In this document: piece after piece, positions 14,745-42,136 of the stretch
How positions within the stretch are numbered: the stretch's first letter is position 1
How the letters are laid out: every line of letters begins with the position of its first letter
From: an uncultured Gammaproteobacteria bacterium
Lineage (GTDB): Bacteria > Patescibacteriota > Microgenomatia > Levybacterales > GWA1-39-11
Direction: 5' to 3'
Length of the DNA stretch: 64,000 bases
Assembly: GCA_964425075.1 (NCBI GenBank)
Contig: CAYRKM010000001.1
Coordinates: 601,827-665,826, forward strand
The notes under the pieces: generated by a model
The model's input: only the letters and a program-made list of their open reading frames with translations
Databases searched by the model: none
What the model was told of the DNA's origin: nothing
Translations under genes and position numbers: made by a program

Positions 14745-16550
14745 ATGAAATCATTAAAAGCAGTAGCACAACTAGAACGCTTGGTATGGGCAGATGTATT
14801 AAGAGTAGTAGCAATTTATTTGGTACTTGTAGTTCATGCTTCCACAATGCCCTCATCAGCCTTTCCATTAAGTAATTCTTGGCCATACATAATTTCCTTT
14901 TCAATTGCAAAAATATGCGTGCCACTTTTTGTGATGTTAAGTGGCGCACTTCTTTTGGAAAAAAAGGAAACTTATAAAATGTTTTTCAAAAAAAGAATTT
15001 TAAAAGTGCTAACCCCTTGGATTGTTTGGACAGCGATTTATATGGGAATTAATTACTACACTAGAGATTTTCAACCACAAACTTTTTCTGAATGGAAATA
15101 TTATTTTACGCTGACTTTCTTTACTGAATTGTGGTTCCTACCTCTTATTTTTTCCATTTATTTATTAACTCCTATTATAAGACTTACCATTCCGTTATTA
15201 AAAAAAACTGACAAGATTTACATCATAATTTTGTGGTTTGTGTGGGTGTCGATTTTACCTTTCTTCAATTCAAGTCCCGCTTTTCCAAAACCATTCAACT
15301 CAGGACTTCTTTCATTGGCCGTATATTTTTCCGGGTACTTTCTTTTGGGCCATTTTTTAACAAAAATTAAGTATCCCAAGAATACTTTATGGTTCTCAAG
15401 TGTACTAATTATATTAGGCATACTAATTAATTTTGTTTCACTCTTTTTAGTTAATGAAAACGAATTAGTTCAATACCAAAGTTCTATTTTTGACTATATA
15501 GCACCTGATGAGTGGGGTTCAAACTCAATTGTTATTTCAAAATATGGAGCCAGAATAACCGTCGCATCAACTGAACAAAGCATAAGAGGATTAAGACACG
15601 GTGAGTATCGCCCAGACTTAGTCATATGTGATGATGTGGAAGATTTGAATAGTGTTAAAACACGAGAAGGTAGAGATAAAACATTTCAATGGTTAGTAGG
15701 AGAAGTTTTGCCAATTGGAGATCAGGGGACAAAGATTGTCATTGTAGGAAACCTACTACATGAAGATAGTCTCTTAATGAGATTGAAACAAGGAATCGAA
15801 AACCAAAAGTTAAATGGTAAGTTTTTTGCTTATCCACTCTTAGGCAAGGATAATGAAATTGCATGGAAGGATAAATTTCCTTCTCAAATCGATGTTGAGA
15901 AATTGCGCTCAAGTATAGGAACTGATTCAGCATGGTATAGAGAGTACCTTCTTCGAATCATCTCTGATGCAGAACGACTAGTCCATCCTGAGTGGATTGC
16001 CTATTACGATAAATCGCCTTCTGAAAGAGCTAATGGATTTAGATTTATTGCAACAGGTGTTGATCTTGCTATATCGCAAAAGGACTCAGCCGATTTCACA
16101 GCAATGGTGTCTGCAAAAATATTCGGACAGAAAGATGATCTAAGAGTTTATATCTTACCTTTCCCAATTAACAAAAGACTTAGTTTTCCAGAAACTTTTG
16201 AACAAGCAAAGAATCTTTCTGAAAATTTAGGAAATGGTCTTTACACAATGCTCTATATTGAAGATGTTGGGTATCAACAATCTTTAATCCAACACTTACA
16301 GGGGAATAATATTCCTGCAGTTGGAGTAAAGGTGTCAGGACAAGACAAAAGAGCAAGGCTTGCTTTAATAACCCATCTTATAAAACAAGGTAAAATACTT
16401 TTCCCGAAAAAAGGAGCAGAAGAATTAATACAACAGCTTACAGGTTTTAGCATTGAGAAGCATGACGATTTGGCAGATGCATTTTCCCTTCTAATTCTCA
16501 AGATTCAGGAGATGGATAATAAGCCTACATTCGATTACAGTTTTATCTAG
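14745..16550 (+). pseudogene. Chimeric ORF: acyltransferase-3 family membrane protein N-terminus (aa 1-~246) fused in frame to C-terminal ~355 aa of a phage terminase large subunit (lacks ATPase Walker A)
   Basis: N-terminus has Acyl_transf_3 pattern (LRVVAIYLVLVVHA, VPLFVMLSGALLL); from ~15483 the protein is ~85% identical by eye to residues ~132-490 of TerL at 29787..31313. Confidence 0.6.
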
Positions 16551-16885: not shown

Positions 16886-17386
16886 ATGGCATTATCTGAA
16901 GAACAGAAAATCAAAATTAAAGAAGAAGAGAAAAAGAAGCTTGAGGAAGAGAAATATAGAGAGAATGTAAAGAAAAATCTTAAAAAGGGACCTTGGTGGA
17001 AACCTAGGGGAGTATTAGCGTGGGTCGCAGTAGTCTTTATAATTGGATGGATTATTTATGCTGTATCTACCAACTCTTCTACAAGTACACCTCCTAAAGA
17101 TACAACTAATCTAGATGGAAATGTTTCCTATAATGATTTGCAATTCAAGGTAAGTAATACCGAACAAAAAGATTGGGAATATTGCCACTTTACTCTAAAT
17201 AATGATTATCATTATCCGGGAAGCTCTTTTAGCGATAAAGCTGGGCCAATTAAGGCTGGTGAAACTGTGTTTATTAATGCGTCAAATTTTGCAAAAAGCG
17301 ATGGTACGAGATTTAATCCCTATTCGGTAAAGCCACAGGCTATAAATGTAGATTGCAACGGAAGATTCGGCTACTGGAAATGGTAA
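16886..17386 (+). CDS. Membrane-anchored DUF4352-like protein with Lys/Glu-rich N-terminal coiled coil
   Basis: KKGPWWK then TM helix then beta-rich extracellular domain; positional equivalent of DUF4352 gene at 31663. Confidence 0.4.
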   Translation: MALSEEQKIKIKEEEKKKLEEEKYRENVKKNLKKGPWWKPRGVLAWVAVVFIIGWIIYAVSTNSSTSTPPKDTTNLDGNVSYNDLQFKVSNTEQKDWEYCHFTLNNDYHYPGSSFSDKAGPIKAGETVFINASNFAKSDGTRFNPYSVKPQAINVDCNGRFGYWKW

Positions 17387-17456
17387 ACCTCAAGCTATCC
17401 TTATAAGATTCTCCTACTAGACTTCACAAAACACCTGCGGTACCTTGTGTCCTGAG

Positions 17457-18797
17457 ATGGATAACAGTAACGTATTAGCAAGAGCACCTATAGTTTCATT
17501 ACCTACAACTGAATACTGTCTTTATGCCAGAAAATCGACAGAAGATGACGAAAGACAAGCTATGTCAATCGATTCTCAAATTAAGGAGATGAATGATATG
17601 GCTATACGAGACGGTCTGTTTATCAAAGAAATCCGCCAAGAGAAACATTCGGCTAAAATGTCTGGACAAAGGCCAGTATTTGCAAAATTAATTGAAGATA
17701 TTCGAATTGGAATGTTTACAGGCATTTTGACATGGGCGCCAGATAGATTAAGTAGAAACGCAGGCGACTTAGGGATGTTGGTAGATCTTATGGATCAGGG
17801 AAGCTTACATCACATAAAAACCTTTTCTCAAAGTTTTTCTAATAATCCGAATGAGAAATTTTTACTTATGATCCTATGTTCTCAGGCGAAATTAGAAAAT
17901 GATCAAAAAGGAATAAATGTTAAAAGAGGAATTCGTGCAAAATGTTCAATGGGCTGGCGTCCAGGGATGCCGCCCATCGGTTATTACAATAGAGCTTTTA
18001 ATGGAGTGAAAGATATAATTGTAGATCCTGATAGAGGCCCAATAATCAGAGAAATGTTTGATCGAGTAGCAAAAAATGGAGATAGTGGTAAGACTTTAAA
18101 GAAGTGGCTAGACACTTGCTTAACCACTAGAGCTGGAAAGAAAGTGACACTAAGCCAGATTTATATGATGCTTAAAAATCCTTTTTACTACGGGGAATTT
18201 GAATATCCTATAAACAGCGGCAATAGATATAAAGGAGCTCATCCACCTTTAATATCTAAGGAAATATTTGATGAGGTACAAAATCAACTAACTGCACCCA
18301 AGAGAGGCTGGGGATTTAAAACATTTGCCTTTAAAGATTTATTTAAATGTGGGAATTGTGGGTCAAGTGTAATTGGAGAAGAAAGGTGGAGAAAGAGAAA
18401 AGCAAGACCCCCAGTTCATCACGTCTATTATCATTGTACGCGGCAGAAAAATTGGGATTGTAAAGAACCGTATCTAACGGAGGAAAAATTAATAAAAGAA
18501 TTACTACGATATATCAATTTTAACGTTATTGCCCATCCACAAACTATAAATATTACTCCGGAGCTAAAAAGATATATGAATGAATACGAAAAAGCTAGAG
18601 AAATAACCCTCCTCCAGCAAGATATTGATCCAGACCACATCCAGTTTGGAATCTATGAATATTCTCAATATGCACTTAAGAACGGCTCAATTGAGGAGAA
18701 AAGAGAAGTAATAACTTCAATAAAAACACAGCTGTATATTCACAATCAGTTTATTAGTTCATTATCTAAAGTAAATGATGCACTAGTATCTAGTTGA
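17457..18797 (+). CDS. Large serine recombinase (resolvase catalytic domain + recombinase domain + zinc ribbon)
   Basis: YARKSTEDDERQ nucleophile-serine motif, recombinase domain, CGNCGS...YYHCTRQ zinc ribbon; ~80% identical by eye to paralog at 47374. Confidence 0.85.
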   Translation: MDNSNVLARAPIVSLPTTEYCLYARKSTEDDERQAMSIDSQIKEMNDMAIRDGLFIKEIRQEKHSAKMSGQRPVFAKLIEDIRIGMFTGILTWAPDRLSRNAGDLGMLVDLMDQGSLHHIKTFSQSFSNNPNEKFLLMILCSQAKLENDQKGINVKRGIRAKCSMGWRPGMPPIGYYNRAFNGVKDIIVDPDRGPIIREMFDRVAKNGDSGKTLKKWLDTCLTTRAGKKVTLSQIYMMLKNPFYYGEFEYPINSGNRYKGAHPPLISKEIFDEVQNQLTAPKRGWGFKTFAFKDLFKCGNCGSSVIGEERWRKRKARPPVHHVYYHCTRQKNWDCKEPYLTEEKLIKELLRYINFNVIAHPQTINITPELKRYMNEYEKAREITLLQQDIDPDHIQFGIYEYSQYALKNGSIEEKREVITSIKTQLYIHNQFISSLSKVNDALVSS

Positions 18798-27333: not shown

Positions 27334-28626
27334 ATGTTGAACGCACATACTAAACAAGAGAACCCATATTCTATCGTTTATGTTTCAGCTCAAGAACTTC
27401 GCCCCGCTGAATACAATCCAAGAAAATGGGATGAGGAAGCTGCCAAGCAATTAACGGAGAGTATTAAGCGCTTCGGATTGATAGATCCCATTATTGCGAA
27501 TGGTGCATCTAATCGAAAAAATATTGTAATTGGTGGACATTTCAGACTCGAAGTAGGAAAAAGACTAGGTATAGAAAAAGTACCTGTGGTTTATGTTAAT
27601 ATCCCCAATCTTCAGAAGGAAAAGGAGTTGAATCTACGTCTTAACCGCAATACTGGAGAATGGGATTTTGAACTTCTGAAATCATTTAATGTCGAGCTGT
27701 TACTTGATGTTGGATTTGATGATAGCGATCTTTCACACATTTGGGATGATAACTTGGGAGTCGAAAATGACGACTTTGATGTTAAAAAAGAAATTGAAAA
27801 GATCAAAGAACCAAAAAGCAAATGGGGAGATATATACCAGCTTGGATCGCACCGACTTATTTGTGGAGACGCGACAGATCCCGAAGTACTCAAAAAGCTA
27901 GTACAGGATGACAAGATATCCATGCTCTACTGCGATCCCCCATATAATATCTCGCTCGATTACAGCAACGGGATTGGAACAAATGGAAAATATGGCGGGA
28001 AAACGAATGACAAGAAATCTGAAGAAGAATATAAAGCGTTTCTCAAGAAAACGCTTGAAAATGGGCTATCAACTGCTTTTCCTGATGCACACGTGTTTTA
28101 TTGGTGTGATGAAAATTACATTGGACTAATCCAGGGAATATACAAGGAACTTGGGATTATAAACAAACGAGTTTGTCTTTGGATTAAGAATAACCAGAAC
28201 GTCACTCCACAAACTGCATTTAATAAAGTGTATGAACCATGCGTTTATGGTATTCAAGGTAATCCGTATCTTTCCGAATCAGTCAAAAACCTGAATGAGG
28301 TTCTCAATAAAGAGGTAGGAACAGGAAATCGACTGACAGATGATATCCTTGACCTTTTTAATATATGGCTAGCAAAACGTCTTCCTGCACAAGAATACGA
28401 ACATCCGACAGAAAAACCACCAACACTCCATGAAAAAGCATTACGTCGTTGCACGAAAGCTGGAGACATCGTGCTTGATGTATTCGGTGGCTCCGGATCT
28501 ACTCTCATTGCGTGTGAACAACTCAAACGCAGAGCATATCTTTGCGAAATTGAGCCTATTTTTTGTGACCTTATTATCAAGCGCTTCGAGAAGTTGACTG
28601 GACAGGAGGCAAAGCTATGCAAATAA
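27334..28626 (+). CDS. ParB-like nuclease domain fused to beta-class DNA methyltransferase
   Basis: N-terminal ParB/Srx fold (VIGGHFRLEVGKRLG); motif IV CDPPYNI then motif I VLDVFGGSGSTLIA. Confidence 0.8.
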   Translation: MLNAHTKQENPYSIVYVSAQELRPAEYNPRKWDEEAAKQLTESIKRFGLIDPIIANGASNRKNIVIGGHFRLEVGKRLGIEKVPVVYVNIPNLQKEKELNLRLNRNTGEWDFELLKSFNVELLLDVGFDDSDLSHIWDDNLGVENDDFDVKKEIEKIKEPKSKWGDIYQLGSHRLICGDATDPEVLKKLVQDDKISMLYCDPPYNISLDYSNGIGTNGKYGGKTNDKKSEEEYKAFLKKTLENGLSTAFPDAHVFYWCDENYIGLIQGIYKELGIINKRVCLWIKNNQNVTPQTAFNKVYEPCVYGIQGNPYLSESVKNLNEVLNKEVGTGNRLTDDILDLFNIWLAKRLPAQEYEHPTEKPPTLHEKALRRCTKAGDIVLDVFGGSGSTLIACEQLKRRAYLCEIEPIFCDLIIKRFEKLTGQEAKLCK

Positions 28627-29372
28627 AAATAGGTGATGTTCTACAACTCGGTGATCATCGCTTGGCGTGTGGAGATGCAAAAGACTCAGCGTTGTTAAAG
28701 AGGCTTATTTTAGATGATCGAATCTCTCTCCTTCTGACGGATCCGCCCTACGGCGTGGCTTATGTTGAAGGAAAAGCTGAACTTACGGAAATTAAGAGTA
28801 ATAAAAAGATAGCCAACGATCACAACCAAACAGAAGGAACGTATCGCCATTTTACGAAGGAATGGCTAGAAGCAATAAAGCCATATCTTGCCAAGAAAAA
28901 TTCTTTTTACATTTTTAACTCAGACAAAATGGTGTTCTCCTTGCGAGATGGCATTGTTGATGCGGGTTTTCGACTCACACAACTACTTGTGTGGATCAAA
29001 AACAATGTTGTCGTCGGACGGCTTCACTATTTACCACAACATGAGCTGATCGCATACGGATGGTTTGGAAGTCATGAGTTCTATAAAGCAAAGGACAAAA
29101 GTATCCTCATCTATCCAAAACCTAATAAAAGCCCACTTCATCCAACCATGAAGCCAGTCGGACTTCTCAGAAACTTAATCCTTAATAGCTCGAAAATTGA
29201 TGACTATGTCTATGACCCATTCGGCGGATCGGGATCAACACTTATTGCTTGCGAACAAACGAAAAGGAAATGCCTCATGGTGGAGATAGATCCGGAGTAC
29301 TGCCAAGTGATTATTGATCGCTTTGAAAAAGTTACAGGTTACAAAGCAGAAAGGACAAAAGATGGAAAATAA
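28617..29372 (+). CDS. DNA methyltransferase (beta-class N4C/N6A)
   Basis: Motif IV LLLTDPPYGV followed by motif I VYDPFGGSGSTLIA. Confidence 0.8.
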   Translation: MQIKIGDVLQLGDHRLACGDAKDSALLKRLILDDRISLLLTDPPYGVAYVEGKAELTEIKSNKKIANDHNQTEGTYRHFTKEWLEAIKPYLAKKNSFYIFNSDKMVFSLRDGIVDAGFRLTQLLVWIKNNVVVGRLHYLPQHELIAYGWFGSHEFYKAKDKSILIYPKPNKSPLHPTMKPVGLLRNLILNSSKIDDYVYDPFGGSGSTLIACEQTKRKCLMVEIDPEYCQVIIDRFEKVTGYKAERTKDGK

Positions 29373-29790
29373 TCCGACGATTCAGAAGCGAATAGATAAA
29401 AATCAGGAACTACTTATTGAGCAGCTTAAGAAAACGCCAATTGTTCAAGTTGCGTGTGAGAAAGTCGGGGTAGGCCGAGCTACTTATTACCGATGGAGAA
29501 AAGAAAATGAAGTATTTGCCGAACAAGCAGATGAAGCAATAGCTGAAGGAGCGTTACTTGTGAATGACATGGCCGAGTCCCAACTCATGGCAGCGATTCG
29601 GGATAAAAATCTCACAGCCATCATTTTCTGGTTGAAGCACCATCACCCTCACTACGCAACGAAAGTTGAAGTGACGGCTAGACTAAAAGCTGATAACGAA
29701 GTTTTAACGCCTGAACAAGAAGCACTAGTAACGAAAGCATTAAAACTTGCCTCATTAATTCCTGAAACAAAGGAGGAAGTAAAACAATGA
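29362..29790 (+). CDS. Terminase small subunit-like HTH protein
   Basis: VACEKVGVGRATYYRWRKE helix-turn-helix; immediately upstream of and overlapping TerL. Confidence 0.5.
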   Translation: MENNPTIQKRIDKNQELLIEQLKKTPIVQVACEKVGVGRATYYRWRKENEVFAEQADEAIAEGALLVNDMAESQLMAAIRDKNLTAIIFWLKHHHPHYATKVEVTARLKADNEVLTPEQEALVTKALKLASLIPETKEEVKQ

Positions 29791-31313
29791 TTGTTGGAGC
29801 AATTACAGATAACGTGCTCGAAGGAATAAAAAGAGAAAGATCCGTGAGACGAGAAGTCGCAAGAAGTAGCCATCTTTGGTTTTTCTCAATATACCTTGGA
29901 CACTATATCAAGTATCCATTTGCGCCGTTTCATTCAGAAATGTTTGCGCTGACGGAAAATGCTGACATACGATTATCAGTTCTTGTAGCATTTCGTGGTT
30001 CTGGAAAATCAACGCTTATAACTCTGTCTTATCCAATCTGGGCAATTGTGGGAGCACAGCAAAAGAAGTTTGTGCTCATCCTCTCTCAAACCCAAACGCA
30101 AGCAAGACTTCATATGGCAAACATAAAACGAGAGCTTGAGAGTAATGACTTATTAAAAGCAGATATTGGACCATTTGAAGAAGTAAGTGACGAATGGGGA
30201 TCAAATTCAATTGTCATCTCAAAATATGGCGCACGTATTACTGTTGCCTCAACGGAGCAGAGTATTCGAGGATTAAGACATGGGGAGCATCGACCTGATC
30301 TGGTTATTTGTGATGATGTGGAGGATTTAAATAGTGTAAAAACCCGGGAAGGACGAGACAAAACATTCCAATGGCTGGTTGGTGAAGTGCTCCCAATCGG
30401 AGATCAAGAAACAAAGATTGTAATTGTTGGAAATCTTTTGCACGAAGACAGTCTCTTAATGCGACTGAAAAAAGGAATTGAAAATGAAAAACTTAATGGA
30501 AAATATTTTGCCTATCCACTCCTAGATATAAATAATACTATTGCATGGCAGGCTAAATTTAAAACTTTAGAGGACGTTGAGAGATTACGGGCAAGTATTG
30601 GAACAGACTCTGCGTGGTATCGAGAGTATTTATTACGAATAATTTCTGATGCGGACCGCTTAGTCCATCCTGAATGGATTCAGTATTATGACCGGATACC
30701 ATCTGAAGATAGTGGTGACTTCCATTACACTGCAACTGGTATTGATCTGGCGATATCTCAACGGGAGTCTGCAGACTATACTGCAATGGTTTCAGCTAAA
30801 GTATTTGGCTACTATGAGAAATTAAAAATATACATCCTGCCCCATCCCGTAAATGAACGTTTAAGTTTTCCTGAAACCTACGAGAAAGCAAAACAATTGT
30901 CCAAAGATTTAGGGGACGGTCACTATACTAAATTATTTATCGAAGATGTAGGATATCAAGCTGCTCTTATCCAAGACTTATCAAATCACAATGTTCCAGC
31001 AGAAGGGGTAAAGGTATCAGGACAAGATAAAAGATCAAGACTTGCTTTGATAACGCATCTTATTAAGCAAGGAAAAGTTCTCTTCCCTAAGGGAAACCAA
31101 GCTGAAGAACTTATTATGCAACTTACCGGGTTCGGTATTGAGAAACATGACGATTTAGCTGATGCGTTTTCGCTTCTACTTCTAAAGATCCTGGAAGAGG
31201 ATCAAGGAGAGCCAAGTGTCTATATCATCGATATGGGAAGCAGTCTTTATGATAGATATTCACCACTCGGGAATCTGAACGAAGACCGTTTTACACTTGA
31301 TACAAAATTTTAG
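29787..31313 (+). CDS. Phage terminase large subunit (ATPase + nuclease)
   Basis: Walker A AFRGSGKSTLI, Walker B LVICDDVED, C-terminal RNaseH-like nuclease with DDLADAF. Confidence 0.85.
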   Translation: MIVGAITDNVLEGIKRERSVRREVARSSHLWFFSIYLGHYIKYPFAPFHSEMFALTENADIRLSVLVAFRGSGKSTLITLSYPIWAIVGAQQKKFVLILSQTQTQARLHMANIKRELESNDLLKADIGPFEEVSDEWGSNSIVISKYGARITVASTEQSIRGLRHGEHRPDLVICDDVEDLNSVKTREGRDKTFQWLVGEVLPIGDQETKIVIVGNLLHEDSLLMRLKKGIENEKLNGKYFAYPLLDINNTIAWQAKFKTLEDVERLRASIGTDSAWYREYLLRIISDADRLVHPEWIQYYDRIPSEDSGDFHYTATGIDLAISQRESADYTAMVSAKVFGYYEKLKIYILPHPVNERLSFPETYEKAKQLSKDLGDGHYTKLFIEDVGYQAALIQDLSNHNVPAEGVKVSGQDKRSRLALITHLIKQGKVLFPKGNQAEELIMQLTGFGIEKHDDLADAFSLLLLKILEEDQGEPSVYIIDMGSSLYDRYSPLGNLNEDRFTLDTKF

Positions 31314-31580
31314 CTAAACAGTCGAAGGATACAAATCATCAACTTTTACCTTCAATGCTTTGGCAATACGATAGAGCGTGTAGGATGAAGGTGTTCTTTT
31401 CGCAGTCTCTACAAGATTAATATATGTCCGATAAAAACCACATTCAGCAGAAAGTTGATCTTGAGACCACCCCTTCTTCTTTCTCGCCTCCCTTATATTG
31501 TTACCGACAATTTCGGTAAACTTATACTTACTCAGCATATAGCATATTTTCCTAGGCTCTCCTACAACTGTGCAACGCAC
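31314..31580 (-). CDS. XRE-family HTH transcriptional regulator
   Basis: NNIREARKKKGWSQDQLSAECGFYRTYINLVETAKRTPS helix-turn-helix. Confidence 0.75.
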   Translation of the reverse strand: MRCTVVGEPRKICYMLSKYKFTEIVGNNIREARKKKGWSQDQLSAECGFYRTYINLVETAKRTPSSYTLYRIAKALKVKVDDLYPSTV

Positions 31581-31662
31581 TATTAGTAGAATTACTGCTT
31601 GATTTCCTCTATAATTAGCGATAATGTTGGGTTTAACCTATAAAGAAAGGAGGTGCTAAAAC

Positions 31663-32223
31663 ATGAAGAAATTACTTAAATGGGGAGGAATCGGACTCAT
31701 AATTATTATTGTGCTTGCAGTAATTGCAAGTAGCGGTGGAGATAAATCAGGTAACCAATCCACAACTGACTCAAACTCAGCGGGATCGCCTGATAGCAAG
31801 CAGGACAATACTGCTAAAACATACGGTCTTAATGAGACTGTCCAGGACGGAGATCTTGCTTTTACCGTTACCGGTGTTGAAACAGCCAAAACGCTTGGAA
31901 ATCAATTCACCGAGAAAGATTCTCAGGGCACGTTTTACGTTGTAACCCTGAAAATTGAAAATAAGGGAAACAAAACCGCAACCTTTGATAGCTCAATGGC
32001 GAAAGTAACAGACGACCAAGGCCGTGAATTTGAACGCTCTATCGAAGGCCAAACCGCCAAAGGTATGGCGCAGGGTAGTGTGGATTTATTTCTACAGCAA
32101 ATTCAACCATCATTATCTGTAACAGGAGACTTGGTGTTTGATCTGCCAGCGGATATGCAAAATCCAATGCTGGTTGTTAAAGGTTCACTCTTTGCAAAAG
32201 GAGCGAAAATTAAGCTTCAGTAA
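31663..32223 (+). CDS. DUF4352 domain membrane-anchored protein
   Basis: N-terminal TM, Ser/Thr-rich linker, FTVTGVE...YVVTLKIENKG...DDQGREF pattern of DUF4352; strong SD AAAGGAGGTG 8 nt upstream. Confidence 0.6.
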   Translation: MKKLLKWGGIGLIIIIVLAVIASSGGDKSGNQSTTDSNSAGSPDSKQDNTAKTYGLNETVQDGDLAFTVTGVETAKTLGNQFTEKDSQGTFYVVTLKIENKGNKTATFDSSMAKVTDDQGREFERSIEGQTAKGMAQGSVDLFLQQIQPSLSVTGDLVFDLPADMQNPMLVVKGSLFAKGAKIKLQ

Positions 32224-32224
32224 A

Positions 32225-32274
32225 AATAACGGATCCGTTATTTTCAAAAGCCCCTTCTTTAAGGAGGGGCTTTT
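32225..32274 (+). terminator. Two tandem intrinsic terminators after DUF4352 gene
   Basis: AATAACGGATCCGTTATTtt perfect palindrome then AAAAGCCCCTtctttaaggAGGGGCTTTT hairpin with T-tract. Confidence 0.6.
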
Positions 32275-32279
32275 AGTTC

Positions 32280-32306
32280 TTGACACACTACTACACAATG
32301 TAGTAG
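32280..32306 (+). promoter_or_regulatory. Promoter -35 TTGACA with overlapping cop-box-like palindromic operator CTACTACA-caa-TGTAGTAG upstream of csoR
   Basis: TTGACA at 32280-32285; perfect 8-bp inverted repeat at 32288-32306; same motif recurs 3 more times in island. Confidence 0.5.
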
Positions 32307-32326
32307 ATTATCTCTATGGGGGGTAT

Positions 32327-32599
32327 ATGTCATACAGGCCTAAAGATACACAAGAGCGAATAATCCACCGTCTCAAGATCGCAAAGGGGCAACTAGAGAA
32401 AGTAATCAAAATGGTTGAAGAAGATACATATTGTATTGATATCCTTCACCAATCGCACGCTATACAGAAAGCCCTAAAAGAGACAGATCATCTCATGCTT
32501 GAGAATCATCTACAAAAATGTGCCGCTGATGCTATTGGCAAAGGTCGCAAAGATGAAGCAATAAAAGAAGTAATGCAAGTTTTCAAAAAATCTCAATGA
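32327..32599 (+). CDS. csoR: CsoR/RcnR-family metal-sensing transcriptional repressor
   Basis: ~91 aa from Met64 of track ORF; conserved C-x24-H-x3-C style residues (YCIDILHQSHAIQKAL) of CsoR family. Confidence 0.75.
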   Translation: MSYRPKDTQERIIHRLKIAKGQLEKVIKMVEEDTYCIDILHQSHAIQKALKETDHLMLENHLQKCAADAIGKGRKDEAIKEVMQVFKKSQ

Positions 32600-33384
32600 A
32601 AGTGATTTTAATTATTGTTATTTTATTCTTTGCCATAGCCGCGTCAGGATTTCTATATTTTACGGTTAATAGAAATGGCACGAAAGCTCAAGAGAACTCA
32701 AGAACAAAAGTTCAGCAGAGTAATTCAAGCTTACAAGATCTCGTTGTTGCTCCACAAAAACCCACGGATAAAGTAATTGTAGAAAAAGTTACTCTCAAGA
32801 AAGCTGGATTTCTTGCTCTACGTGAGATGGAAGGAGACACACTGAGCCAAATTGTTGAGATAAGTACTTTCTTAAAGGTAGGAACACACACTGATGTGGA
32901 GATTCCTCTTAACAACGTGGATATTACGGATAAGGATCTTATTGTAATGGTTTATGAAGATCAAGAAAATGATCAGGTTTTTAATGATCTTGAGATTCCG
33001 GCAGTCAATGAGAAAGGTTCTTTGATTGCAAGATATGTAAAAACTGGTGAACCCCTTCCAGAAAATCTAGTTGAAGGAAATACATCTGACATGCCTGCAC
33101 ACAGCATGGAAGGAATGGTAACAGTAAAGTATACAGATAATGGATTTACACCAAATAAGATAGAAATTAACGAGGGAGATATGGTTGAATTTCGAAATGA
33201 GAGTAACAGGAATATGTGGGTTGCCTCAGCCAATCACCCGGCACATGAAGTTCTACCTACTTTTGACCAATTCAGAGCGTTTACGAAAGGTTCTGTATAT
33301 CGCTATGTATTCAAAAAGACAGGTTCATGGGAGTATCACGATCACTTAAGTCCAACTTTAGGAGGAGTAGTTGTCGTAAATTAA
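32596..33384 (+). CDS. Membrane-anchored protein with C-terminal cupredoxin-like domain (putative metal-binding)
   Basis: N-terminal TM; C-terminal beta-rich region with His cluster EYHDHL; context in copper island. Confidence 0.35.
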   Translation: MKVILIIVILFFAIAASGFLYFTVNRNGTKAQENSRTKVQQSNSSLQDLVVAPQKPTDKVIVEKVTLKKAGFLALREMEGDTLSQIVEISTFLKVGTHTDVEIPLNNVDITDKDLIVMVYEDQENDQVFNDLEIPAVNEKGSLIARYVKTGEPLPENLVEGNTSDMPAHSMEGMVTVKYTDNGFTPNKIEINEGDMVEFRNESNRNMWVASANHPAHEVLPTFDQFRAFTKGSVYRYVFKKTGSWEYHDHLSPTLGGVVVVN

Positions 33385-33422
33385 ATGTAAATATTGAAAT
33401 GTAGGACATAATAACTTTTACT

Positions 33423-34580
33423 ATGCAATTATCAAAACACATATATACAATTGCTTCATTTGTTTTTGTAATATTCGTATTGGGACTAGCCTTTTTCTCC
33501 GATAAAATAGCTGCTACTAATAACTCAACTGTTAAACAAAATCAAGCCGCAGAAAAATTATATGTAGCCTTAGAGGATGATGGTGCAATCGCTGTGATTG
33601 ATACAAAAGATAATTCACTTCTTGGCAAAATCGATCTTACAGAAAAGAATGGGGAGATGGAAGTCGGTTACTCAGCTCATAATGTGCAGGTAGCACCGGA
33701 TGGCAAAAGTGTTTGGGTAACTGCAAACTTTATGGGTCTTGGGGGACATGAAGGAGAAAATGATACCACTGAAAATGAAGAAACAAAAGAAGCATTTTCA
33801 GACCAAGTGATAATCATTGATCCCCAAAAGGATTCTATAGTAAAACGTATTGATATAGGAGCTGATCAGCATCTTGCCCACATAGTTGTAACCAGGGGCG
33901 GAAAAACTGCCTTTGCTACCGCGCAGGAACCAGGACTGGTATATAAAATAAACGGTGTAACATACGAAGTCGAGAAAACTATCCCTCTTACAAAAGATGC
34001 AGAGCCGCATGGTCTAAGACTTTCAGCAGATGACACAAAAGCTTTTGTTGCACTTATAGATGGAAAAGGCATTGGTGTAGTCGATACCAGAACAAATGAA
34101 GTAAAAACTGTCCCACTTTCAGGAAGCGCTGTACAAACAGCGGTTATTCCTAATACTAACTATATTGCAGCTTCGGTGTACGATACAAAGCAGATAGCAT
34201 TTTATGATACCGTTACAGGGGAAGTTTCCTATGTAGATTTACCTGCTGAATCTGAAGGCGCAATCCAATCATATGCTACACCAGATGGAAGGTATTTATA
34301 TATTGCAGATCAAGGATATTACTTCGGCAAACCAACAAGTGATTATGTGTATGTTATTGATGTTCAAGGGAAGCAGGTTGTTGGCAAAATTCAGGCAGGT
34401 GTTGCGCCTCACGGTGTTGTAGTGTCCCCTGATGGGAAAAGAGCGTATATTACAAATCTTTTAAGTGATGACATTTCAGTTATTGATACAGCCACTGATA
34501 AAGAACTTACCAAAATAAAAGTTGGAAAAATGCCAAATGGTATTAGCTTGTGGTCACACCAATCGGGAGGTACACCTTAA
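33423..34580 (+). CDS. Secreted YVTN-family beta-propeller repeat protein
   Basis: Signal/TM then repeated ~40-aa units (YVxxxxDxxIxVIDT) typical of YVTN beta-propeller. Confidence 0.55.
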
Positions 34581-36859
34581 TGGAAACGAAAACATTTCAA
34601 GTTAAAGGGATGCACTGCGCATCCTGCGCAAATATCATAAAAAGAAAATTAGAAAAGCTCGAGGGAGTTACAACTTGCACTGTTAATTTCGGAACAGAAA
34701 AAGCAGAAGTAGCATTTGATGCTACGAAAGTTGGGTTGCTTCAGATGAATGAGCAAGTTAACAAGCTTGGGTATACTCTTAATACTACTGAAGCTCCTAA
34801 TGCTTCTGAACAATCACAAGTTTCGACAGAAAATGAGGCAAAAGAGCAAAAGCTTAAAGAACTTGAAGAAATGAGGCAGAAAACAGCCTTTGTCATGCCG
34901 ATTGCAGCAGTTGTTTTTGTCTTGATGCTCTGGGAAATTCTTGTCTCTAGGGTAGCGTTTCTTCCTACCTTTCCTCTTTCAATGGATGCATTTAACAGAG
35001 CATCATTTATATTGGCAACTCCTGTCATGTTCTGGATCGGGAAACCTTTTATTAACGGCGTGGTACGGTTTATTAAGTATAGAGCCGCAAATATGGATAC
35101 ACTGGTTGGAATTGGTACATTAGTTGCATACTTCTACAGCAGTATTATGCTTCTTTTTCCTGAAATAAAGACGCTTCTAAACGCTCCTGAAGGGTTATAT
35201 TATGATGTAACAATTGTCGTTATTGGATTTATTACGTTAGGTAAGTATCTTGAAGCAAAATCAAAACTTAAGACTGGTGAGGCAATTGAAAAACTTTTAG
35301 GGCTTGCGGCAAAATCTGCTATTGTGATTCGCGATGGAAAAGAATTAGAGATTCCCATTGGACAAGTAGTTGTCGACGATACGCTTATTGTGAAACCAGG
35401 TCAAAAAATCCCAGTAGATGGAGAGATTATTCAAGGAAAATCCTCAATAGATGAGTCCATGATTACAGGAGAATCAATACCAGTTGATAAAACTGTTGGG
35501 GATACCGTGATCGGTGCAACTATTAATAAACACGGCGCATTTCAAATGAAGGCAACACAGGTAGGAGGACAAACAGTTTTGTCTCAAATAATAAAAATGG
35601 TTGAGGCGGCTCAAGGATCAAAAGCGCCTATTGAAAGGATAGCCGATCAAGTATCAGGAGTTTTCGTTCCCATTGTTTTGGTATTTGCAGTTATTGTCCT
35701 TCTTTTATGGCTCACTGTTGGATCTCAATTTATGCCATTCTCTCAAGCTCTCTCGCTTGGTCTTATTAGCTTTGTAGGAATTTTGGTTATCGCCTGTCCA
35801 TGCGCAATGGGTCTTGCAACTCCCACCGCTGTCATAGTCGGCGTTGGTAAAGCAGCGCAAAATGGTATCTTAATTAAGAATGCAGAAAGTCTTGAGAAGT
35901 TTCAAGGTATTAACTTTGTTGTGATGGATAAAACAGGCACGATTACTAATGGAACACCCGCAGTAACGGATATAAAAGTGACTGCAAAAATAGCGCAAAA
36001 AAAGATATTACAGCTGCTTGCGTCTTTAGAAAAACAATCAGAACACCCATTAGCTCAGGCAGTAGTTGATGCGGCAAAAGATGAAAATATTAGCTTCTTA
36101 TCAGTTTCTCACTTCAAGGCATTGGAAGGAAAGGGGCTTGAAGGAAGTATTGCCGGAACGCATTACTTTGCCGGAAATCTTAAATTAGCAGATGATCTTG
36201 GGTTAAAAGTTGATACAAATTTGATTAAAAAATTAACTTCGCAAGGAAAAACACCAGTAGTCTTTGCAACTAAAAAAGCAATTATTGCCTATGTTGCTAT
36301 AGCCGATACCATCAAAGAAGACGCAAAAGAAGCAGTTGCAGCGCTTCATAAGCTTGGTATCAAAGTTGCAATGCTAACAGGAGATAACAGACGTACTGCA
36401 GAACACATTGCAAAGCAAGTTGGCATTGATCGGGTTATTGCAGAAGTGCTACCAAGCGATAAGGCGAAGGAAGTAAAAAAGCTACAGGATGAAGGGTATA
36501 AAGTCGCAATGGTAGGTGATGGTATTAATGATGCACCAGCGCTTGCTACGGCTGATGTGGGAGTGGCAATGGGCACAGGAACTGATGTGGCTATTGAGTC
36601 TGCAGGAATAACCCTTCTTGGCGGTCACATTTCTAAATTACCAAAAGCAATAAAGCTTTCCCGTAAAACTATGCGGGTTATCAAACAGAATCTGTTCTGG
36701 GCATTTTTCTATAATATTGTCGGGATCCCGGTAGCTGCGGGAGCGCTATATCCATTTATAGGTATTATGCTTTCTCCTGCGATTGCAGGGGCAGCGATGG
36801 CCTTTAGCAGTGTTTCAGTCGTGACCAATTCACTTCTTCTAAAACGTCATAGACTTTAA
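34580..36859 (+). CDS. copA: Copper-translocating P1B-type ATPase (CopA-like)
   Basis: N-terminal [13 protein letters not shown]6 CPC ([11 protein letters not shown]), [15 protein letters not shown]. Confidence 0.9.
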
Positions 36860-36863
36860 CTTT

Positions 36864-37589
36864 ATGAAAATTCTCAAGTTGGTAATAATTTGTATTTTTT
36901 TATTGGCCGTTATAGGAGGAGTTATTGTTTGGCAAAAAACAAACTTCTCTCCTTCAAGCCAACAAATAAATAATACTCAAAATCTTGATAAGGAGTATCA
37001 ACTAGCTGAAGGAAAAATAACTATTCTGGATAGACATAATAAGAAAGAAATAGCCACAATCGACTTAGCTGCAAAAGAAGGAGATTTCCTCATTAAATTT
37101 TATCCCCATGACATTACAACGGTAGATGATAAAAATCAGATTTGGATAACAGTAAGTGCATCACAAGAAGAAATACAGACAATAACCAAAGAACTTGTCG
37201 AAAAAACACAAAGAGATCAGCACGTTATGATGGCTACAGATCAGGTAATTGTCATAGATAAAACTTTAGACAAGATTGTAAAAAGAATCCCAATAGGAGT
37301 AAGTTTAGGATTAGCAGATATTATCATTGCGCCAGATAATAGAAACGCTTATGTTACAGTAGAGGCGAGTGCTGTTTACAAAGTTAACATAGATACCCAT
37401 AAAGTGGAATTAATACAACTGCCTCCTGAAAGTAAACCTCATCAGCTTGCTTTATCAGCTTCAGGAGCAGAACTTTACACAAAAAATCAGGTAAATGGTA
37501 GTGTTTATCTAATTTCGACAAAAACAAATGAAGTTAAGAACTTAAAAGATACTGAAGAGATAAAAAATCTTAGATGGTCGAGTCACTAA
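36864..37589 (+). CDS. Secreted beta-propeller-like protein
   Basis: N-terminal TM; partial YVTN-like repeats (VIVIDKTLDKIVKRIPIG). Confidence 0.4.
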   Translation: MKILKLVIICIFLLAVIGGVIVWQKTNFSPSSQQINNTQNLDKEYQLAEGKITILDRHNKKEIATIDLAAKEGDFLIKFYPHDITTVDDKNQIWITVSASQEEIQTITKELVEKTQRDQHVMMATDQVIVIDKTLDKIVKRIPIGVSLGLADIIIAPDNRNAYVTVEASAVYKVNIDTHKVELIQLPPESKPHQLALSASGAELYTKNQVNGSVYLISTKTNEVKNLKDTEEIKNLRWSSH

Positions 37590-38581
37590 ACGAAATAGTA
37601 ATTATGAATAGAAAGTTAATAATCTTATTTGTATTATTAGTTATTTTTGCAGGAGCATTTTTTCTCTGGCAAAGAAATAACTTCTCTGTCTCGAATCAAC
37701 AAATAGGCACTCCCCAAAATACAAATCCTGAGAGTGATCAGTTATCAGATACTAACAATAATCAGTCGTTTATTGAAGGCTTACAAAATAGGGAGTTTAA
37801 AGGCGGAGAAATAAAAATTGAAGAAACACTAGCACATAATAACTCCTATACAAGTTATATTTTTTCTTATCCCTCAGATAATTTAAAAATTTACGGCATG
37901 ATGAATATTCCCGAAGGAGATGGACCGTTTCCGGTTATTGTTCTTAATCATGGTTACTATAATCCTTCAAGTTTTAATAGCGGTGATGGTACACGAACAA
38001 TGGCAGATATTCTTGCGACAAATGGCTACATTACAGTTGCTTCAGATTATAGAGGACATGGACAATCAGAAGATGATGGACAAAGACGAGGAGGTCATCG
38101 ACCGGAGTTTGCAATTGATGTTTTAAATCTTATCGCTTCAATAAAGAGTATTGATAAAGCAGATCCAAATAGGATTGGTATGTGGGGACATAGTATGGGA
38201 GGAGAGGTGGCTTTGAGAGTTGCAGAAGCAACAGATAAAGTAAAAGCAATTGCATTGTGGGCACCAACGAGCGCAAATGCTTCAGATAATGCTAATTTTT
38301 ATGGAGGAAGGCATAATCCTAATACAAATAATCCTGAGAATGATGGTATATCACCTATTAACTATTTACAGTACATCTCAGCACCAATTAGCTTACATCA
38401 GGGATTAGTTGACGTAGAAGTAAAACCTGAGTGGTCAAAGCAATTGAATGATGCTTTGAAAAAAGAAGGAAAGCAGGTTGAATATTTTGAGTATGAAGGG
38501 CAAGATCATAACTTTAGAAATTTAGGTTGGGATTTGATTTCTCAAAGAACTTTAGAGTTCTATAACAAGTACCTAAAGTAG
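37574..38581 (+). CDS. Alpha/beta hydrolase (dienelactone hydrolase / S9 peptidase-like esterase)
   Basis: GHSMGG nucleophile elbow, downstream Asp and His (QDHNF). Confidence 0.65.
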   Translation: MVESLNEIVIMNRKLIILFVLLVIFAGAFFLWQRNNFSVSNQQIGTPQNTNPESDQLSDTNNNQSFIEGLQNREFKGGEIKIEETLAHNNSYTSYIFSYPSDNLKIYGMMNIPEGDGPFPVIVLNHGYYNPSSFNSGDGTRTMADILATNGYITVASDYRGHGQSEDDGQRRGGHRPEFAIDVLNLIASIKSIDKADPNRIGMWGHSMGGEVALRVAEATDKVKAIALWAPTSANASDNANFYGGRHNPNTNNPENDGISPINYLQYISAPISLHQGLVDVEVKPEWSKQLNDALKKEGKQVEYFEYEGQDHNFRNLGWDLISQRTLEFYNKYLK

Positions 38582-38598
38582 TGATTTGTTATCTAACC

Positions 38599-38615
38599 TG
38601 CTACAATATGTAGTA
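38599..38615 (+). promoter_or_regulatory. Cop-box-like operator tgCTACA-ATA-TGTAGta overlapping TACAAT -10 and start codon of blaI-like gene
   Basis: Inverted repeat CTACA/TGTAG with 3-nt spacer; TACAAT hexamer inside. Confidence 0.45.
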
Positions 38616-38992
38616 TGAAACCTAATCTTGGTGAGCTTGAGCAACAGATCATGGACATTGTTTGGGAGCACAAAAACTGCTCTGCTCGTGATGTTCTTAA
38701 TATGATTGAGAAAGATAAAAAACTTGCATACACCACCGTCGCAACAATCTTACAAAGACTCTTCGATAAAGGTCTTCTTACTCGAAATGAAAATACTGCT
38801 GGACATATTTACTCTCCTAAGGTTTCAAAGGAAAAATACACAAAAAATGTCGCTCAGTCGTTTTTAAAGAACTTCATAAATTCTTTTGGTGATACCGCAA
38901 TCGCCTCATTTGCGGACAGTATTGATAAGCTGCCGGAAAAAAAGAGAAAGTATTTTTTAAAAGTTCTCGACGAGTATGATAAAAATAAATAA
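38615..38992 (+). CDS. BlaI/MecI/CopY-family winged-helix transcriptional repressor
   Basis: LGELEQQIMDIVWEHKNCSARDVL...AYTTVATILQRLFDKGLL matches Penicillinase_R family; lacks CopY C-terminal Cys motif. Confidence 0.8.
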   Translation: MKPNLGELEQQIMDIVWEHKNCSARDVLNMIEKDKKLAYTTVATILQRLFDKGLLTRNENTAGHIYSPKVSKEKYTKNVAQSFLKNFINSFGDTAIASFADSIDKLPEKKRKYFLKVLDEYDKNK

Positions 38993-39983
38993 AAATCTTT
39001 CCTTATTTTCGGGGTTATTTCTTTTATTGGGAACGCTTTTACTTTACACGCTTCAAAAGTTTTCTCCACTTTTAGGTCACGTTACATATTACTGTCAGTC
39101 ATTACTAATAGATGCAAATATGGTCCCGATACCCTATTACCTTAGTATGATTCCATTTGCTTTACTTTTCATTATTTTGGCAATTTCTGTAATAAAGTTT
39201 CTTGTTCTAAACATTAAAGTACAATTTCTTAAATTTAAATTAAAAGGAAGTGTTGCTATTGATACTAGCACTTATAAACTAATCAGTCGGCTTGGATTAC
39301 AAGATAAAGCAATCCTTGTAAAGTCAGATAAGCAGTTTGCATTTTGTTTAGGCGTCAGAATGCCCAAGATTTACTTTTCAACTGGTTTACTTACTCAGTT
39401 GTCACAGAAAGAATTAGAAGCAGTGCTATTACATGAACAATATCATTTAGAAAATTATGATACATTTACTATGATTGTCGCATCAGTCGCGCAATCACTG
39501 TTTCCTTTTTTCCCATTGATTAATGATCTTATTAATAAATACAGGATTGAAAGAGAAATAGCTGCTGACAAATTTGCAGTTGACAAGTTAGCTGACAAAT
39601 ACATACTTATATCGGCCCTTAAAAAACTTCTTGCGTTTCCTACTGTTCAGGCAGCACCAGTTGCTGCTATTGCAGACCAGGATACACTAGAACCAAGAAT
39701 TTACTCGCTTGTAAATAAACCATATGTCAGGCGACACTTTAAACTAAAACATGCATTTATAACCTTATTTTCTTGTTTGGTACTTGCAGCAGTTATTGTT
39801 ATGCCAGTACATGCCAAAGAGCTTCACCACGAAGAACATGATGTCATGATGCTCTGTACAGATGGAGAATGTATGAACTCATGCACAAGCGAAAAGAACT
39901 TGAATAAACTTTATTCTGAAATACCAGGTGCTGAAGTGAATCAGTCAATCTCATCACAACCATACAGTCCAATTCATAAGTAG
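38976..39983 (+). CDS. BlaR1/MecR1-like M56 peptidase membrane protein with Cys/His-rich C-terminal tail
   Basis: 4 TM helices, HEQYHL (HExxH) zinc-protease motif; C-terminal HHEEHDVMMLCTDGECMNSC instead of a penicillin-binding sensor domain. Confidence 0.75.
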   Translation: MIKINKNLSLFSGLFLLLGTLLLYTLQKFSPLLGHVTYYCQSLLIDANMVPIPYYLSMIPFALLFIILAISVIKFLVLNIKVQFLKFKLKGSVAIDTSTYKLISRLGLQDKAILVKSDKQFAFCLGVRMPKIYFSTGLLTQLSQKELEAVLLHEQYHLENYDTFTMIVASVAQSLFPFFPLINDLINKYRIEREIAADKFAVDKLADKYILISALKKLLAFPTVQAAPVAAIADQDTLEPRIYSLVNKPYVRRHFKLKHAFITLFSCLVLAAVIVMPVHAKELHHEEHDVMMLCTDGECMNSCTSEKNLNKLYSEIPGAEVNQSISSQPYSPIHK

Positions 39984-40021
39984 CCTCTAATAAATTTACC
40001 CTTGACAACACTAGAATTATA

Positions 40022-40040
40022 CTACTACAATATGTAGTAG
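40022..40040 (+). promoter_or_regulatory. Cop-box-like operator CTACTACA-ATA-TGTAGTAG within promoter (TTGACA 40002-40007; TACAAT 40026-40031) of dsbA-like operon
   Basis: Perfect 8-bp inverted repeat with 3-nt spacer; overlaps -10. Confidence 0.55.
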
Positions 40041-40058
40041 GCAGTTTTTAACAGTAGT

Positions 40059-40862: not shown

Positions 40863-40864
40863 TT

Positions 40865-41899: not shown

Positions 41900-41903
41900 A
41901 CTT

Positions 41904-42131: not shown

Positions 42132-42136
42132 CATGT

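What the first reader, a model, noticed from the sequence alone, without database searches (positions are those of the whole stretch)
17386..17460. Conserved sequence immediately upstream of both serine recombinase genes
TGCGGTACCTTGTgtCCTGAgATGG (17434-17460) matches gtTGCGGTACCTTGTccCCTGAtATGA (47352-47377) although flanking DNA is unrelated. It could be a shared promoter/RBS leader or part of the recombination (att) site, since serine recombinase att sites often lie adjacent to the recombinase gene.
Basis: seen in the sequence. Interest (0 to 1): 0.5.

Follow-up and report, generated by a model that had tools for sequence, protein, structure and literature searches.

The report
Conserved promoter-like leader of integrase genes
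The shared sequence in front of the two serine recombinase genes is real and selected, recurs in front of this gene family across candidate-phyla (Patescibacteria) genomes, and looks like the gene's promoter rather than its recombination site.

Summary
TGCGGTACCTTGT occurs exactly twice in the window, 8 nt upstream of the ATG of two paralogous large serine recombinases (68% aa identity). The similarity covers the whole 69-70-nt intergenic leader (46/69 identical), although 4-fold synonymous sites of the two genes are randomised (30% identical).

In 89 homologous loci from Patescibacteria MAGs, 76 carry the same two-box motif: CTRGACTT, 13-14 variable nt, GCGGTACCnT, then 7-12 nt to the ATG. 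Its geometry is that of a sigma-70-type promoter:
- a -35-like TRGACT;
- a 16-17-nt spacer;
- a -10-like TAYYnT;
- a pyrimidine/purine step where transcription should start.

There is no Shine-Dalgarno sequence, no conserved RNA fold, no Rfam match and no dyad symmetry. Of 95 profile hits, 93 point the same way as the recombinase gene. They precede either that gene or a conserved ~50-aa ORF in front of it.

The recombinase closes an integrative element (ParB-methylase, TerS-like, TerL, cargo, recombinase) that abuts a convergent tRNA-Gln. The element-host junction is therefore downstream of the gene, not at the motif.

Verdict: a promoter and short-leader module, probably overlapped by a regulator site. 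It is a new member of a known kind and of modest interest.

The parts
17397..17416 (+). Copy 1, A/T-rich block upstream of box 1 (ATCCTTATAAGATT...). It pairs with 47314-47333 and sits where an UP-like element or a second -10-like box (TATAGT in relatives) would lie.
   Evidence: Left edge of the 81-nt repeat D7. In relatives the consensus is ATAGTATTTT at about 50-60% per column.
17417..17424 (+). Copy 1, box 1 CTAGACTT. The -35-like hexamer is TAGACT, 17418-17423.
   Evidence: profile score 40.9.
17436..17448 (+). The -10-like hexamer is TACCTT, 17441-17446, 17 nt after the -35-like hexamer.
17451..17456 (+). Copy 1, CCTGAG, the predicted transcription start region (pyrimidine then purine, T17453/G17454), 3 nt before the ATG at 17457.
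   Evidence: Inferred from the spacing to the -10-like hexamer. Logo columns 36/37 are T or C in 48/75 and G or A in 56/75.
17457..18797 (+). rec1, a large serine recombinase (Resolvase + Recombinase + Zn_ribbon_recom).
47314..47333 (+). Copy 2, A/T-rich block ATCCTCATAGTATTTTGCGT.
   Evidence: D7.
47334..47341 (+). Copy 2, box 1 CTGGACTT. The -35-like hexamer is TGGACT, 47335-47340.
   Evidence: profile score 46.6.
47353..47365 (+). Copy 2, box 2 TGCGGTACCTTGT. The -10-like hexamer is TACCTT, 47358-47363, after a 17-nt spacer.
47368..47373 (+). Copy 2, CCTGAT, the predicted start region (T47370/G47371). The ATG is at 47374.
   Evidence: Inferred.
47374..48702 (+). rec2, a large serine recombinase, 68% identical to rec1.
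   Evidence: phrog_95 integrase.
27334..31313 (+). Backbone of the element that rec2 closes: ParB-methylase, methylase, TerS-like HTH, TerL.
   Evidence: The same order recurs upstream of the recombinase in about 40 of 82 loci.
31314..47304 (+). Cargo between TerL and the motif: XRE regulator (-), DUF4352, and copper/metal-resistance genes ending with a CopA-like ATPase.
15506..16550 (+). Truncated TerL of the older, rec1-bearing element, fused in frame to an acyltransferase.
   Evidence: D1, D4, D5: 76-82% identical to 30188-31202.
49466..49537 (-). tRNA-Gln(CUG), convergent with rec2. It marks the host side of the element's end.

Best explanation
The conserved block is the recombinase gene's own transcription-start module. 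It is carried with the gene in a family of integrative elements of Patescibacteria.

Box 1 (CTRGACTT) acts as a -35 element. Box 2 (tGCGGTACCnT) supplies an extended-10-like G and a weak -10 hexamer, TAYYnT, 16-17 bp downstream. RNA polymerase would then start at the conserved pyrimidine/purine step in CCYTGA, 0-5 nt before the ATG. That gives a leaderless or nearly leaderless mRNA with no Shine-Dalgarno sequence, which is a common gene-start style in these genomes.

The non-consensus bases are kept across recombinases only ~50% identical: C before the -35-like hexamer, GCGG before the -10-like hexamer, and CC inside it. This implies that a second protein (a regulator, the recombinase itself, or a specialised sigma factor) also reads the site and keeps expression low or conditional.

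Shown here: conservation, geometry, orientation, coupling to start codons, and the position inside the element. Inferred: the transcription start, the polymerase or sigma that binds, and any regulation.
For: 1. Selection. The leader is 46/69 identical and the 13-mer 13/13, while 4-fold sites are 30% identical.

2. Family-wide presence. 76 of 89 homologs score at least 13/18 on a mismatch-tolerant two-box match; 0.6% of shuffled controls do.

3. Geometry. The distance from GACTT to GGTAC is always 13-14 nt, so the hexamer spacer is 16-17. The sixth position of TAYYnT was not used to select sites, and it is T in 64/75 (background 31%). The position 7-8 nt after the hexamer is a purine in 56/75, preceded by T or C in 48/75.

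4. Divergent members change into other promoter-like sequences: TTGATT or TTGCCG for box 1, and GATAAT, TACAAT or TACTGT for box 2.

5. Direction and gene coupling. 93 of 95 profile hits share the recombinase's orientation. 65 are followed within 20 nt by the recombinase start. About 12 are followed by the start of a conserved ~50-aa ORF that overlaps the recombinase start, with a gap of 6-8 nt after the hexamer.

6. Host habit. SD-like sequences precede only 8 of 45 window genes. 407 neighbouring genes show a sharp TANNNT-N6-ATG peak, 63 against a background of about 14, with T-15/G-14 enrichment.

7. No RNA signal. RNAalifold gives an empty consensus structure, the mean fold z-score is -0.3, and a permissive Rfam scan finds nothing.

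8. In cargo-free loci the motif fills the 16-110 nt between the TerL stop and the recombinase, as expected for an internal promoter.
Against: - The gap between the -10-like hexamer and the ATG is 7-12 nt (mode 10), not the strict 6 nt of the host's leaderless genes. A 1-5-nt leader must therefore be assumed.
- The -10-like hexamer is poor (TACCTT, 3 of 6 matches). Host leaderless promoters show little -35 conservation, whereas box 1 is nearly invariant. The motif is therefore not a typical housekeeping promoter of these organisms.
- In one clade box 2 is GCGTCATCCA, which lacks the final T of TAnnnT.
- Three loci (L067, L075, L080) place the motif 60-100 nt from the ATG. A few copies (L034, L040) are not followed by a nearby start codon.
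- No transcript data were available.
Confidence: 0.6

Rival explanations
1. The motif is above all a specific protein-binding site. It could be an operator for the recombinase, the small ORF product or another regulator. It could also be a promoter read by a specialised (ECF- or group-3-like) sigma factor rather than the housekeeping one. The promoter-like spacing would then reflect that factor.
For: - Non-consensus bases are nearly invariant across recombinases 45-95% identical and across several candidate phyla: C0, T7, G20, C21, G22, G23, C26, C27.
- Host leaderless promoters lack a conserved -35, so box 1 is unusual for them.
- The alternative box 2, GCGTCAT, contains a CGTC-like core as in ECF -10 elements. 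That resemblance rests on my own knowledge, not on a test.
- Box-2-like GCGGTAC or GTGGTAC also occurs in the conserved block between the recombinase and tRNA-Gln in L008, L010 and L029.
Against: - No sigma-factor gene was seen in the elements.
- The two boxes are unrelated to each other and show no dyad or direct symmetry, so a homodimeric regulator is unlikely.
- Each locus's own box-2 7-mer recurs downstream of the gene no more often than chance: 4 hits against 1.9 expected.
- The spacing from GAC to CG(G/T) is 14-15 nt, shorter than the 16-17 typical of ECF promoters (my own knowledge).
Confidence: 0.2
2. The motif is a 5' UTR element. Transcription would start at the upstream TATAGT(AT) box, about 9 nt before CTRGACTT, and the conserved ~45 nt would act in the RNA (translation initiation without SD, protein binding or stability).
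For: - Many Microgenomates-type members have (T)ATAGTATTTT 8-10 nt upstream of box 1, including copy 2 (CATAGTATTTT, 47319-47329).
- The strand and the distance to the ATG are fixed, which an RNA element also needs.
Against: - There is no consensus structure, no covariation and no Rfam match.
- The upstream box is weakly conserved (0.3-0.6 bits per column) and missing in distant members. It has no -35 or TG partner.
- A fixed 13-14-nt spacer of free sequence between two unrelated boxes is what DNA recognition by polymerase predicts. It is not a known RNA motif.
Confidence: 0.1
3. The motif is a recombination site for the serine recombinase: attP, or an attL/attR arm, or an integron-like site at which cargo is inserted between TerL and the recombinase gene.
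For: - The motif sits next to the recombinase gene, as attP often does.
- Variable cargo always lies immediately upstream of it.
- In L031, L034, L040 and L077 (weakly L035) a second copy sits at the TerL stop, so the cargo is bracketed by two copies. In L031 the copy includes the first 12 recombinase codons.
- In this window the two copies are direct repeats 29.9 kb apart that bracket one whole element.
Against: - There is no inverted-repeat half-site structure, and the boxes are not reverse complements of each other.
- The full two-box motif is present in nearly all integrated copies, whereas integration through it would split the boxes.
- Element genes lie on both sides of it.
- The host junction is downstream of the gene, at convergent tRNA genes.
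- 19-20 of about 24 cargo-bearing loci, including this window's cargo region, have no second copy at TerL.
- The motif precedes a different gene, the small ORF, at the same distance from its start codon.
- Sites of serine integrases normally diverge with the enzyme, yet this one is constant over enzymes ~50% identical (the general point rests on my own knowledge).
Confidence: 0.07

Closest known systems
Sigma-70/sigma-A promoters of leaderless or short-leader mRNAs (extended -10 type, as mapped in Mycobacterium and Deinococcus)
   Same: - A -35-like box, a 16-17-nt spacer and TAnnnT preceded by G at -14.
- A start codon a few nt downstream and no Shine-Dalgarno sequence.
- Neighbouring host genes show the same habit, TANNNT-N6-ATG.
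   Different: - The -10-like hexamer is C-rich (TACCTT).
- The gap to the ATG is 7-12 nt instead of 6.
- Box 1 and the GCGG stretch are conserved far beyond what polymerase contacts require.
- No transcription start site has been mapped.
Promoters of mobile-element recombinase genes placed at the element end, such as the tnpX promoter of Tn4451, which is assembled on circularisation (Lyras and Rood 2000, from memory)
   Same: A serine recombinase gene at the extreme end of an integrative element, with its promoter packed into a very short upstream region.
   Different: Both boxes are present in the integrated state. The promoter is therefore not split across the element ends, and expression does not need excision.
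attP/attB sites of large serine integrases (Bxb1, phiC31, A118)
   Same: Length (~45 bp) and position next to the integrase gene.
   Different: - No dyad symmetry.
- Not at the element-host junction.
- Conserved across distantly related enzymes.
- Also found in front of a different gene.
Integron attI with promoter Pc
   Same: Cargo accumulates at one spot next to a recombinase gene and a conserved site. A few loci have cargo bracketed by two site copies.
   Different: - The recombinase is a serine, not a tyrosine, enzyme.
- The gene is co-directional with the cargo and downstream of it.
- Most cargo regions lack a second site.
- There is no attC-like folded element.

Membership tests
Sigma-70-type promoter | A -35 hexamer resembling TTGACA | tested here: met
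   TRGACT matches 4/6 (5/6 in the TTGACT variants). Divergent members have TTGATT, TTGCCG or TAGCTT. The selection regex fixed most of these bases, so the support comes from the mismatch-tolerant scan: 76/89 loci against 0.6% of shuffles.
Sigma-70-type promoter | A spacer of 17 +/- 1 bp between the hexamers | tested here: met
   16 nt in 29 and 17 nt in 46 of 75 distinct instances, and never any other value.
Sigma-70-type promoter | A -10 hexamer with A at position 2 and T at position 6 | tested here: inconclusive
   T at position 6 in 64/75; that position was not used to select sites. The A at position 2 was fixed by the selection pattern. The inner positions are C/T rather than A/T. The GCGTCATCCA clade lacks the final T.
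Sigma-70-type promoter | Fixed orientation and a short distance upstream of a gene start | tested here: met
   93/95 profile hits are co-oriented. 81 are followed within 20 nt by an ORF of at least 40 codons; 65 of these are the recombinase and about 12 the conserved small ORF.
Sigma-70-type promoter | A mapped transcription start 6-9 nt after the -10 hexamer | not testable with these tools
   No transcript data. Only the pyrimidine/purine preference at the expected position is available.
Large-serine-recombinase att site | Imperfect inverted repeat (two half-sites) around a central dinucleotide | tested here: not met
   No inverted repeats of at least 8 nt in 17360-17480 or 47280-47400. The consensus boxes CTRGACTT and GCGGTACC are not reverse complements.
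Large-serine-recombinase att site | Lies at the boundary between element and host DNA in the integrated state | tested here: not met
   TerL or cargo lie upstream and the recombinase downstream. The host boundary is at convergent tRNA genes beyond the 3' end of the recombinase gene.
Large-serine-recombinase att site | A partner (hybrid) site at the other end of the element | tested here: inconclusive
   The window's two copies each precede their own recombinase gene. A second copy at the TerL stop exists in only 4-5 of about 24 cargo-bearing loci. The left ends of the elements were not mapped.
Structured cis-regulatory RNA (riboswitch or leader) | A conserved secondary structure with covariation, or a match to a curated family | tested here: not met
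   RNAalifold gives an empty structure on 75 sequences, the mean z-score is -0.3, and the Rfam scan at E <= 10 finds nothing.
Shine-Dalgarno ribosome-binding leader | A purine-rich GGAGG-like box 5-10 nt upstream of the start codon | tested here: not met
   The 7-12 nt before the ATG are GTCCCCTGAT and GTGTCCTGAG in the window. The family consensus is CCYTGA.

The most novel reading that the evidence does not exclude
The motif has two roles. Besides promoting transcription, it is read by the recombinase (or by the ~50-aa ORF product) and serves as the spot where new cargo is recombined in between TerL and the recombinase gene. That would be a serine-recombinase counterpart of an integron platform, in a capsid-less TerS/TerL/ParB-methylase element family that targets tRNA-Gln across Patescibacteria.
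Probability: 0.08. Interest if true: 0.7.

Novelty: new member of a known kind. Interest (0 to 1): 0.35.

Why it matters
- It fixes the start codons of these recombinase genes: ATG at 17457 and 47374, not the TTG that an ORF caller picks.
- It gives a compact sequence signature for finding this element family in candidate-phyla genomes.
- It adds a concrete, conserved example of SD-free, near-leaderless gene expression in organisms for which almost no promoters have been defined.
- It redirects the search for the true attachment site to the tRNA-Gln side of the gene.
- If the extra conservation reflects a regulator or a special sigma factor, the motif is a ready handle for studying how these elements control integrase expression.

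Tried and rejected
- **RNA element.** RNAalifold on 75 instances, shuffle z-scores and a permissive Rfam scan all gave nothing.
- **att half-sites.** An inverted-repeat search around both copies found none.
- **tRNA fragment.** ARAGORN and Rfam find no tRNA at the motif. No second copy of the tRNA-Gln 3' half exists in the window.
- **Link between box 2 and the conserved block next to tRNA-Gln.** Each locus's own box-2 7-mer recurs downstream 4 times against 1.9 expected, which is not significant.
- **That ~190-nt block as an RNA gene.** No Rfam hit and no supported consensus fold on either strand.
- **Motif copy after TerL in this window's cargo-bearing element.** Absent; the region 31314-31662 holds an XRE gene on the minus strand.
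- **Exact-pattern scans of public collections.** CTAGACTT-N13/14-GCGGTACCTTG in the metagenome contigs gave one G+C-rich contig with no recombinase, a chance match. The CTGGACTT variant in the viral contigs gave none.
- **Literature.** Searches for serine recombinases or leaderless mRNAs in Patescibacteria or the candidate phyla radiation found nothing on this element or motif.
- **Strict leaderless model (TANNNT-N6-ATG).** Rejected for the recombinase, whose gap is 7-12 nt. It holds only approximately for the small ORF, whose gap is 6-8 nt.

Full report
**What is there.** The window has two + strand genes for large serine recombinases: rec1 at 17457-18797 and rec2 at 47374-48702. Each has Resolvase, Recombinase and Zn_ribbon_recom domains, and the two are 68% identical in protein. 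The similarity is wider than reported. Ungapped and anchored at the ATG, the two 69-70-nt intergenic leaders are 46/69 identical, and they contain a second box, CTAGACTT at 17417-17424 and CTGGACTT at 47334-47341. In contrast, 4-fold degenerate sites of the two genes are 30% identical, which is saturation, and the first ~55 coding nt barely align. The leader is therefore under purifying selection. It is not coding. rec1 has an in-frame TAG inside box 1. rec2 has no start codon upstream of the TTG at 47362. In homologs the motif falls in all three frames.

**Family-wide conservation.** A scan of one genome per species returned 80 loci that encode relatives 50-95% identical. All are from Patescibacteria/CPR MAGs (Levyi-, Woese-, Davies-, Shapiro-, Pacei- and Saccharibacteria, WWE3), apart from some mislabelled records. 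Nine more came from viral contigs. Upstream of nearly all of them lies CTRGACTT, then 13-14 variable nt ending in tttGC, then GGTACCnT, then 7-12 nt, then ATG. On a mismatch-tolerant score, 76 of 89 loci reach at least 13/18, against 0.6% of shuffled upstream regions.

**Anatomy.** In 75 distinct instances the distance from GACTT to GGTAC is only ever 13 or 14 nt. TRGACT and TAYYnT are therefore separated by 16-17 nt, the canonical -35/-10 spacing. The sixth position of the second hexamer was not part of the selection pattern, and it is T in 64/75. G at -14 is invariant within a TGCGg stretch that resembles the TRTGn extended -10. Seven to eight nt after the hexamer there is a pyrimidine then purine step (CCYTG/A), where transcription would start. 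Divergent members do not lose the pattern. They drift to other promoter-like hexamers: TTGATT or TTGCCG for box 1, and GATAAT, TACAAT or TACTGT for box 2. No Shine-Dalgarno sequence is present.

**Coupling to gene starts.** A profile scan of all loci gave 95 hits above the best score in shuffled sequence, 93 of them in the recombinase's orientation.
- 65 hits are followed within 20 nt by the recombinase start codon.
- About 12 are followed by a conserved ~50-aa ORF (C..YFY.YLLT.D..YIDRFF.T.K.LKR). It overlaps the recombinase start and begins 6-8 nt after the hexamer.
- In L008, L010, L011, L013 and L068 there are two copies, one before this ORF and one before the recombinase.

A site that precedes two different genes at the same short distance, always on the same strand, behaves like a promoter.

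**Host habit.** Only 8 of 45 window genes have an SD-like sequence. Across 407 neighbouring genes, TANNNT peaks sharply 6 nt before the ATG (63 against a background of about 14), with T-15/G-14 enrichment and little -35 signal. Leaderless starts are therefore common in these organisms. The recombinase motif differs from that norm in three ways: a longer gap (7-12 nt), a C-rich -10-like hexamer, and a strongly conserved box 1. This is why I think a second reader of the site is likely.

**RNA and symmetry tests.** RNAalifold gives no consensus structure, the mean fold z-score is -0.3, and Rfam finds nothing at E <= 10. No inverted repeats surround either copy.

**Genomic setting.** About 40 of 82 loci and all nine viral contigs show the same co-directional order: ParB-methylase, TerS-like HTH, TerL, optional cargo, motif, recombinase. 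In cargo-free loci the motif abuts or overlaps the TerL stop codon. Downstream of the recombinase, 44 of 89 loci and this window have a convergent tRNA-Gln. Others have a convergent tRNA-Asn, Pro, Lys, Met, Ser or Tyr. The recombinase gene is thus the last gene of an integrated element that ends beside a tRNA gene, and the element-host junction lies 3' of the gene.

The window holds two such elements in tandem.
- The older one is a remnant: a truncated TerL fused to an acyltransferase (15506-16550), an XRE regulator, a membrane protein, and rec1.
- The newer one runs from 18833 to rec2 and carries ~15 kb of copper/metal-resistance cargo.

That arrangement explains why the two motif copies are direct repeats 29.9 kb apart, without making them att sites.

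**What keeps the att reading alive, weakly.** Cargo always sits just upstream of the motif. In L031, L034, L040 and L077 a second, partly degenerate copy remains at the TerL stop. In L031 that copy includes the first 12 recombinase codons, which are identical over 41 nt. Tandem arrays followed by deletion, or promoter duplication, explain this as well. Most cargo regions, including the window's, have no second copy.

**Verdict.** Its best reading is a promoter and short-leader module of the integrase gene (confidence 0.6), probably overlapped by a regulatory binding site or read by a special sigma factor (0.2). A 5' UTR role (0.1) and a recombination-site role (0.07) are less supported. It is a new, well-conserved example of a known kind of element. 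Its main value is for annotation and for future work on gene expression and mobile elements in candidate-phyla bacteria.

Noticed in passing
window 14745-48702: There are two tandem paralogous integrative elements. The first is a remnant ending in rec1; its TerL lacks about 133 N-terminal codons and is fused in frame to an Acyl_transf_3 gene (ORF 14745-16550). The second is a complete ~30-kb element (18833-48702) with ParB-methylase, TerS-like and TerL genes but no capsid, portal or tail genes. The same capsid-less backbone recurs in about 40 MAG loci and 9 IMG/VR contigs. It could be a satellite-like or defective-phage element family of Patescibacteria.
   Followed up: partly
window 49466-49537 (-), and L001-L089: A convergent tRNA-Gln lies downstream of the recombinase in 44 of 89 loci and in the window. 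Other loci have a convergent tRNA-Asn, Pro, Lys, Met, Ser or Tyr. tRNA-adjacent integration is unusual for large serine recombinases. No duplicated tRNA fragment was found in the window.
   Followed up: partly
window 49276-49465: A ~190-nt noncoding block between the recombinase (or the 190-aa secreted protein gene 48695-49267) and tRNA-Gln is conserved in many loci. Its motifs are TTGAGGGT, GC(C)GGTyCGAATG (T-loop-like), a TTTAGCAAGCC hairpin, and ACGGTCAC..GGGTGCCCGTCT. There is no Rfam match and no supported consensus fold. It may hold the real attachment site or an unknown RNA.
   Followed up: partly
L015 5831-5992, L019 5858-6019, L010 5040-5234 and 9 further loci: A conserved ~50-aa ORF (C..YFY.YLLT.D..YIDRFF.T.K.LKR) lies directly after the motif and overlaps the recombinase start. 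It has no PHROG match (Pfam was not searched for it). It is a candidate directionality factor or regulator. It is absent from the window.
   Followed up: partly
window 32288-32305, 38598-38615, 40022-40039: The palindrome CT(A/G)CTACAAT/CATGTAGTA occurs three times in front of cargo operons that include a BlaI/CopY-like repressor (38615-38992). It looks like cop-box operators (TACAnnTGTA) of a copper-resistance regulon.
   Followed up: no
window-wide, and 407 genes in L001-L080: Shine-Dalgarno sequences are rare. A -10-like TANNNT sits exactly 6 nt before the ATG far more often than expected (63 against about 14). Leaderless mRNAs therefore appear to be a major mode of gene expression in these Patescibacteria.
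   Followed up: partly
L006 6001-9012, L059, L069, L035: Some loci carry two recombinase genes side by side, or one inverted (L035). Several contigs carry two copies 25-30 kb apart in the same orientation (L006/L013, L008/L015), as in this window. Tandem accretion of these elements seems to be common.
   Followed up: no
L012 about 7345-7368: A run of N (masked sequence) lies immediately after the recombinase stop codon in this locus, so its tRNA-proximal junction cannot be read.
   Followed up: no
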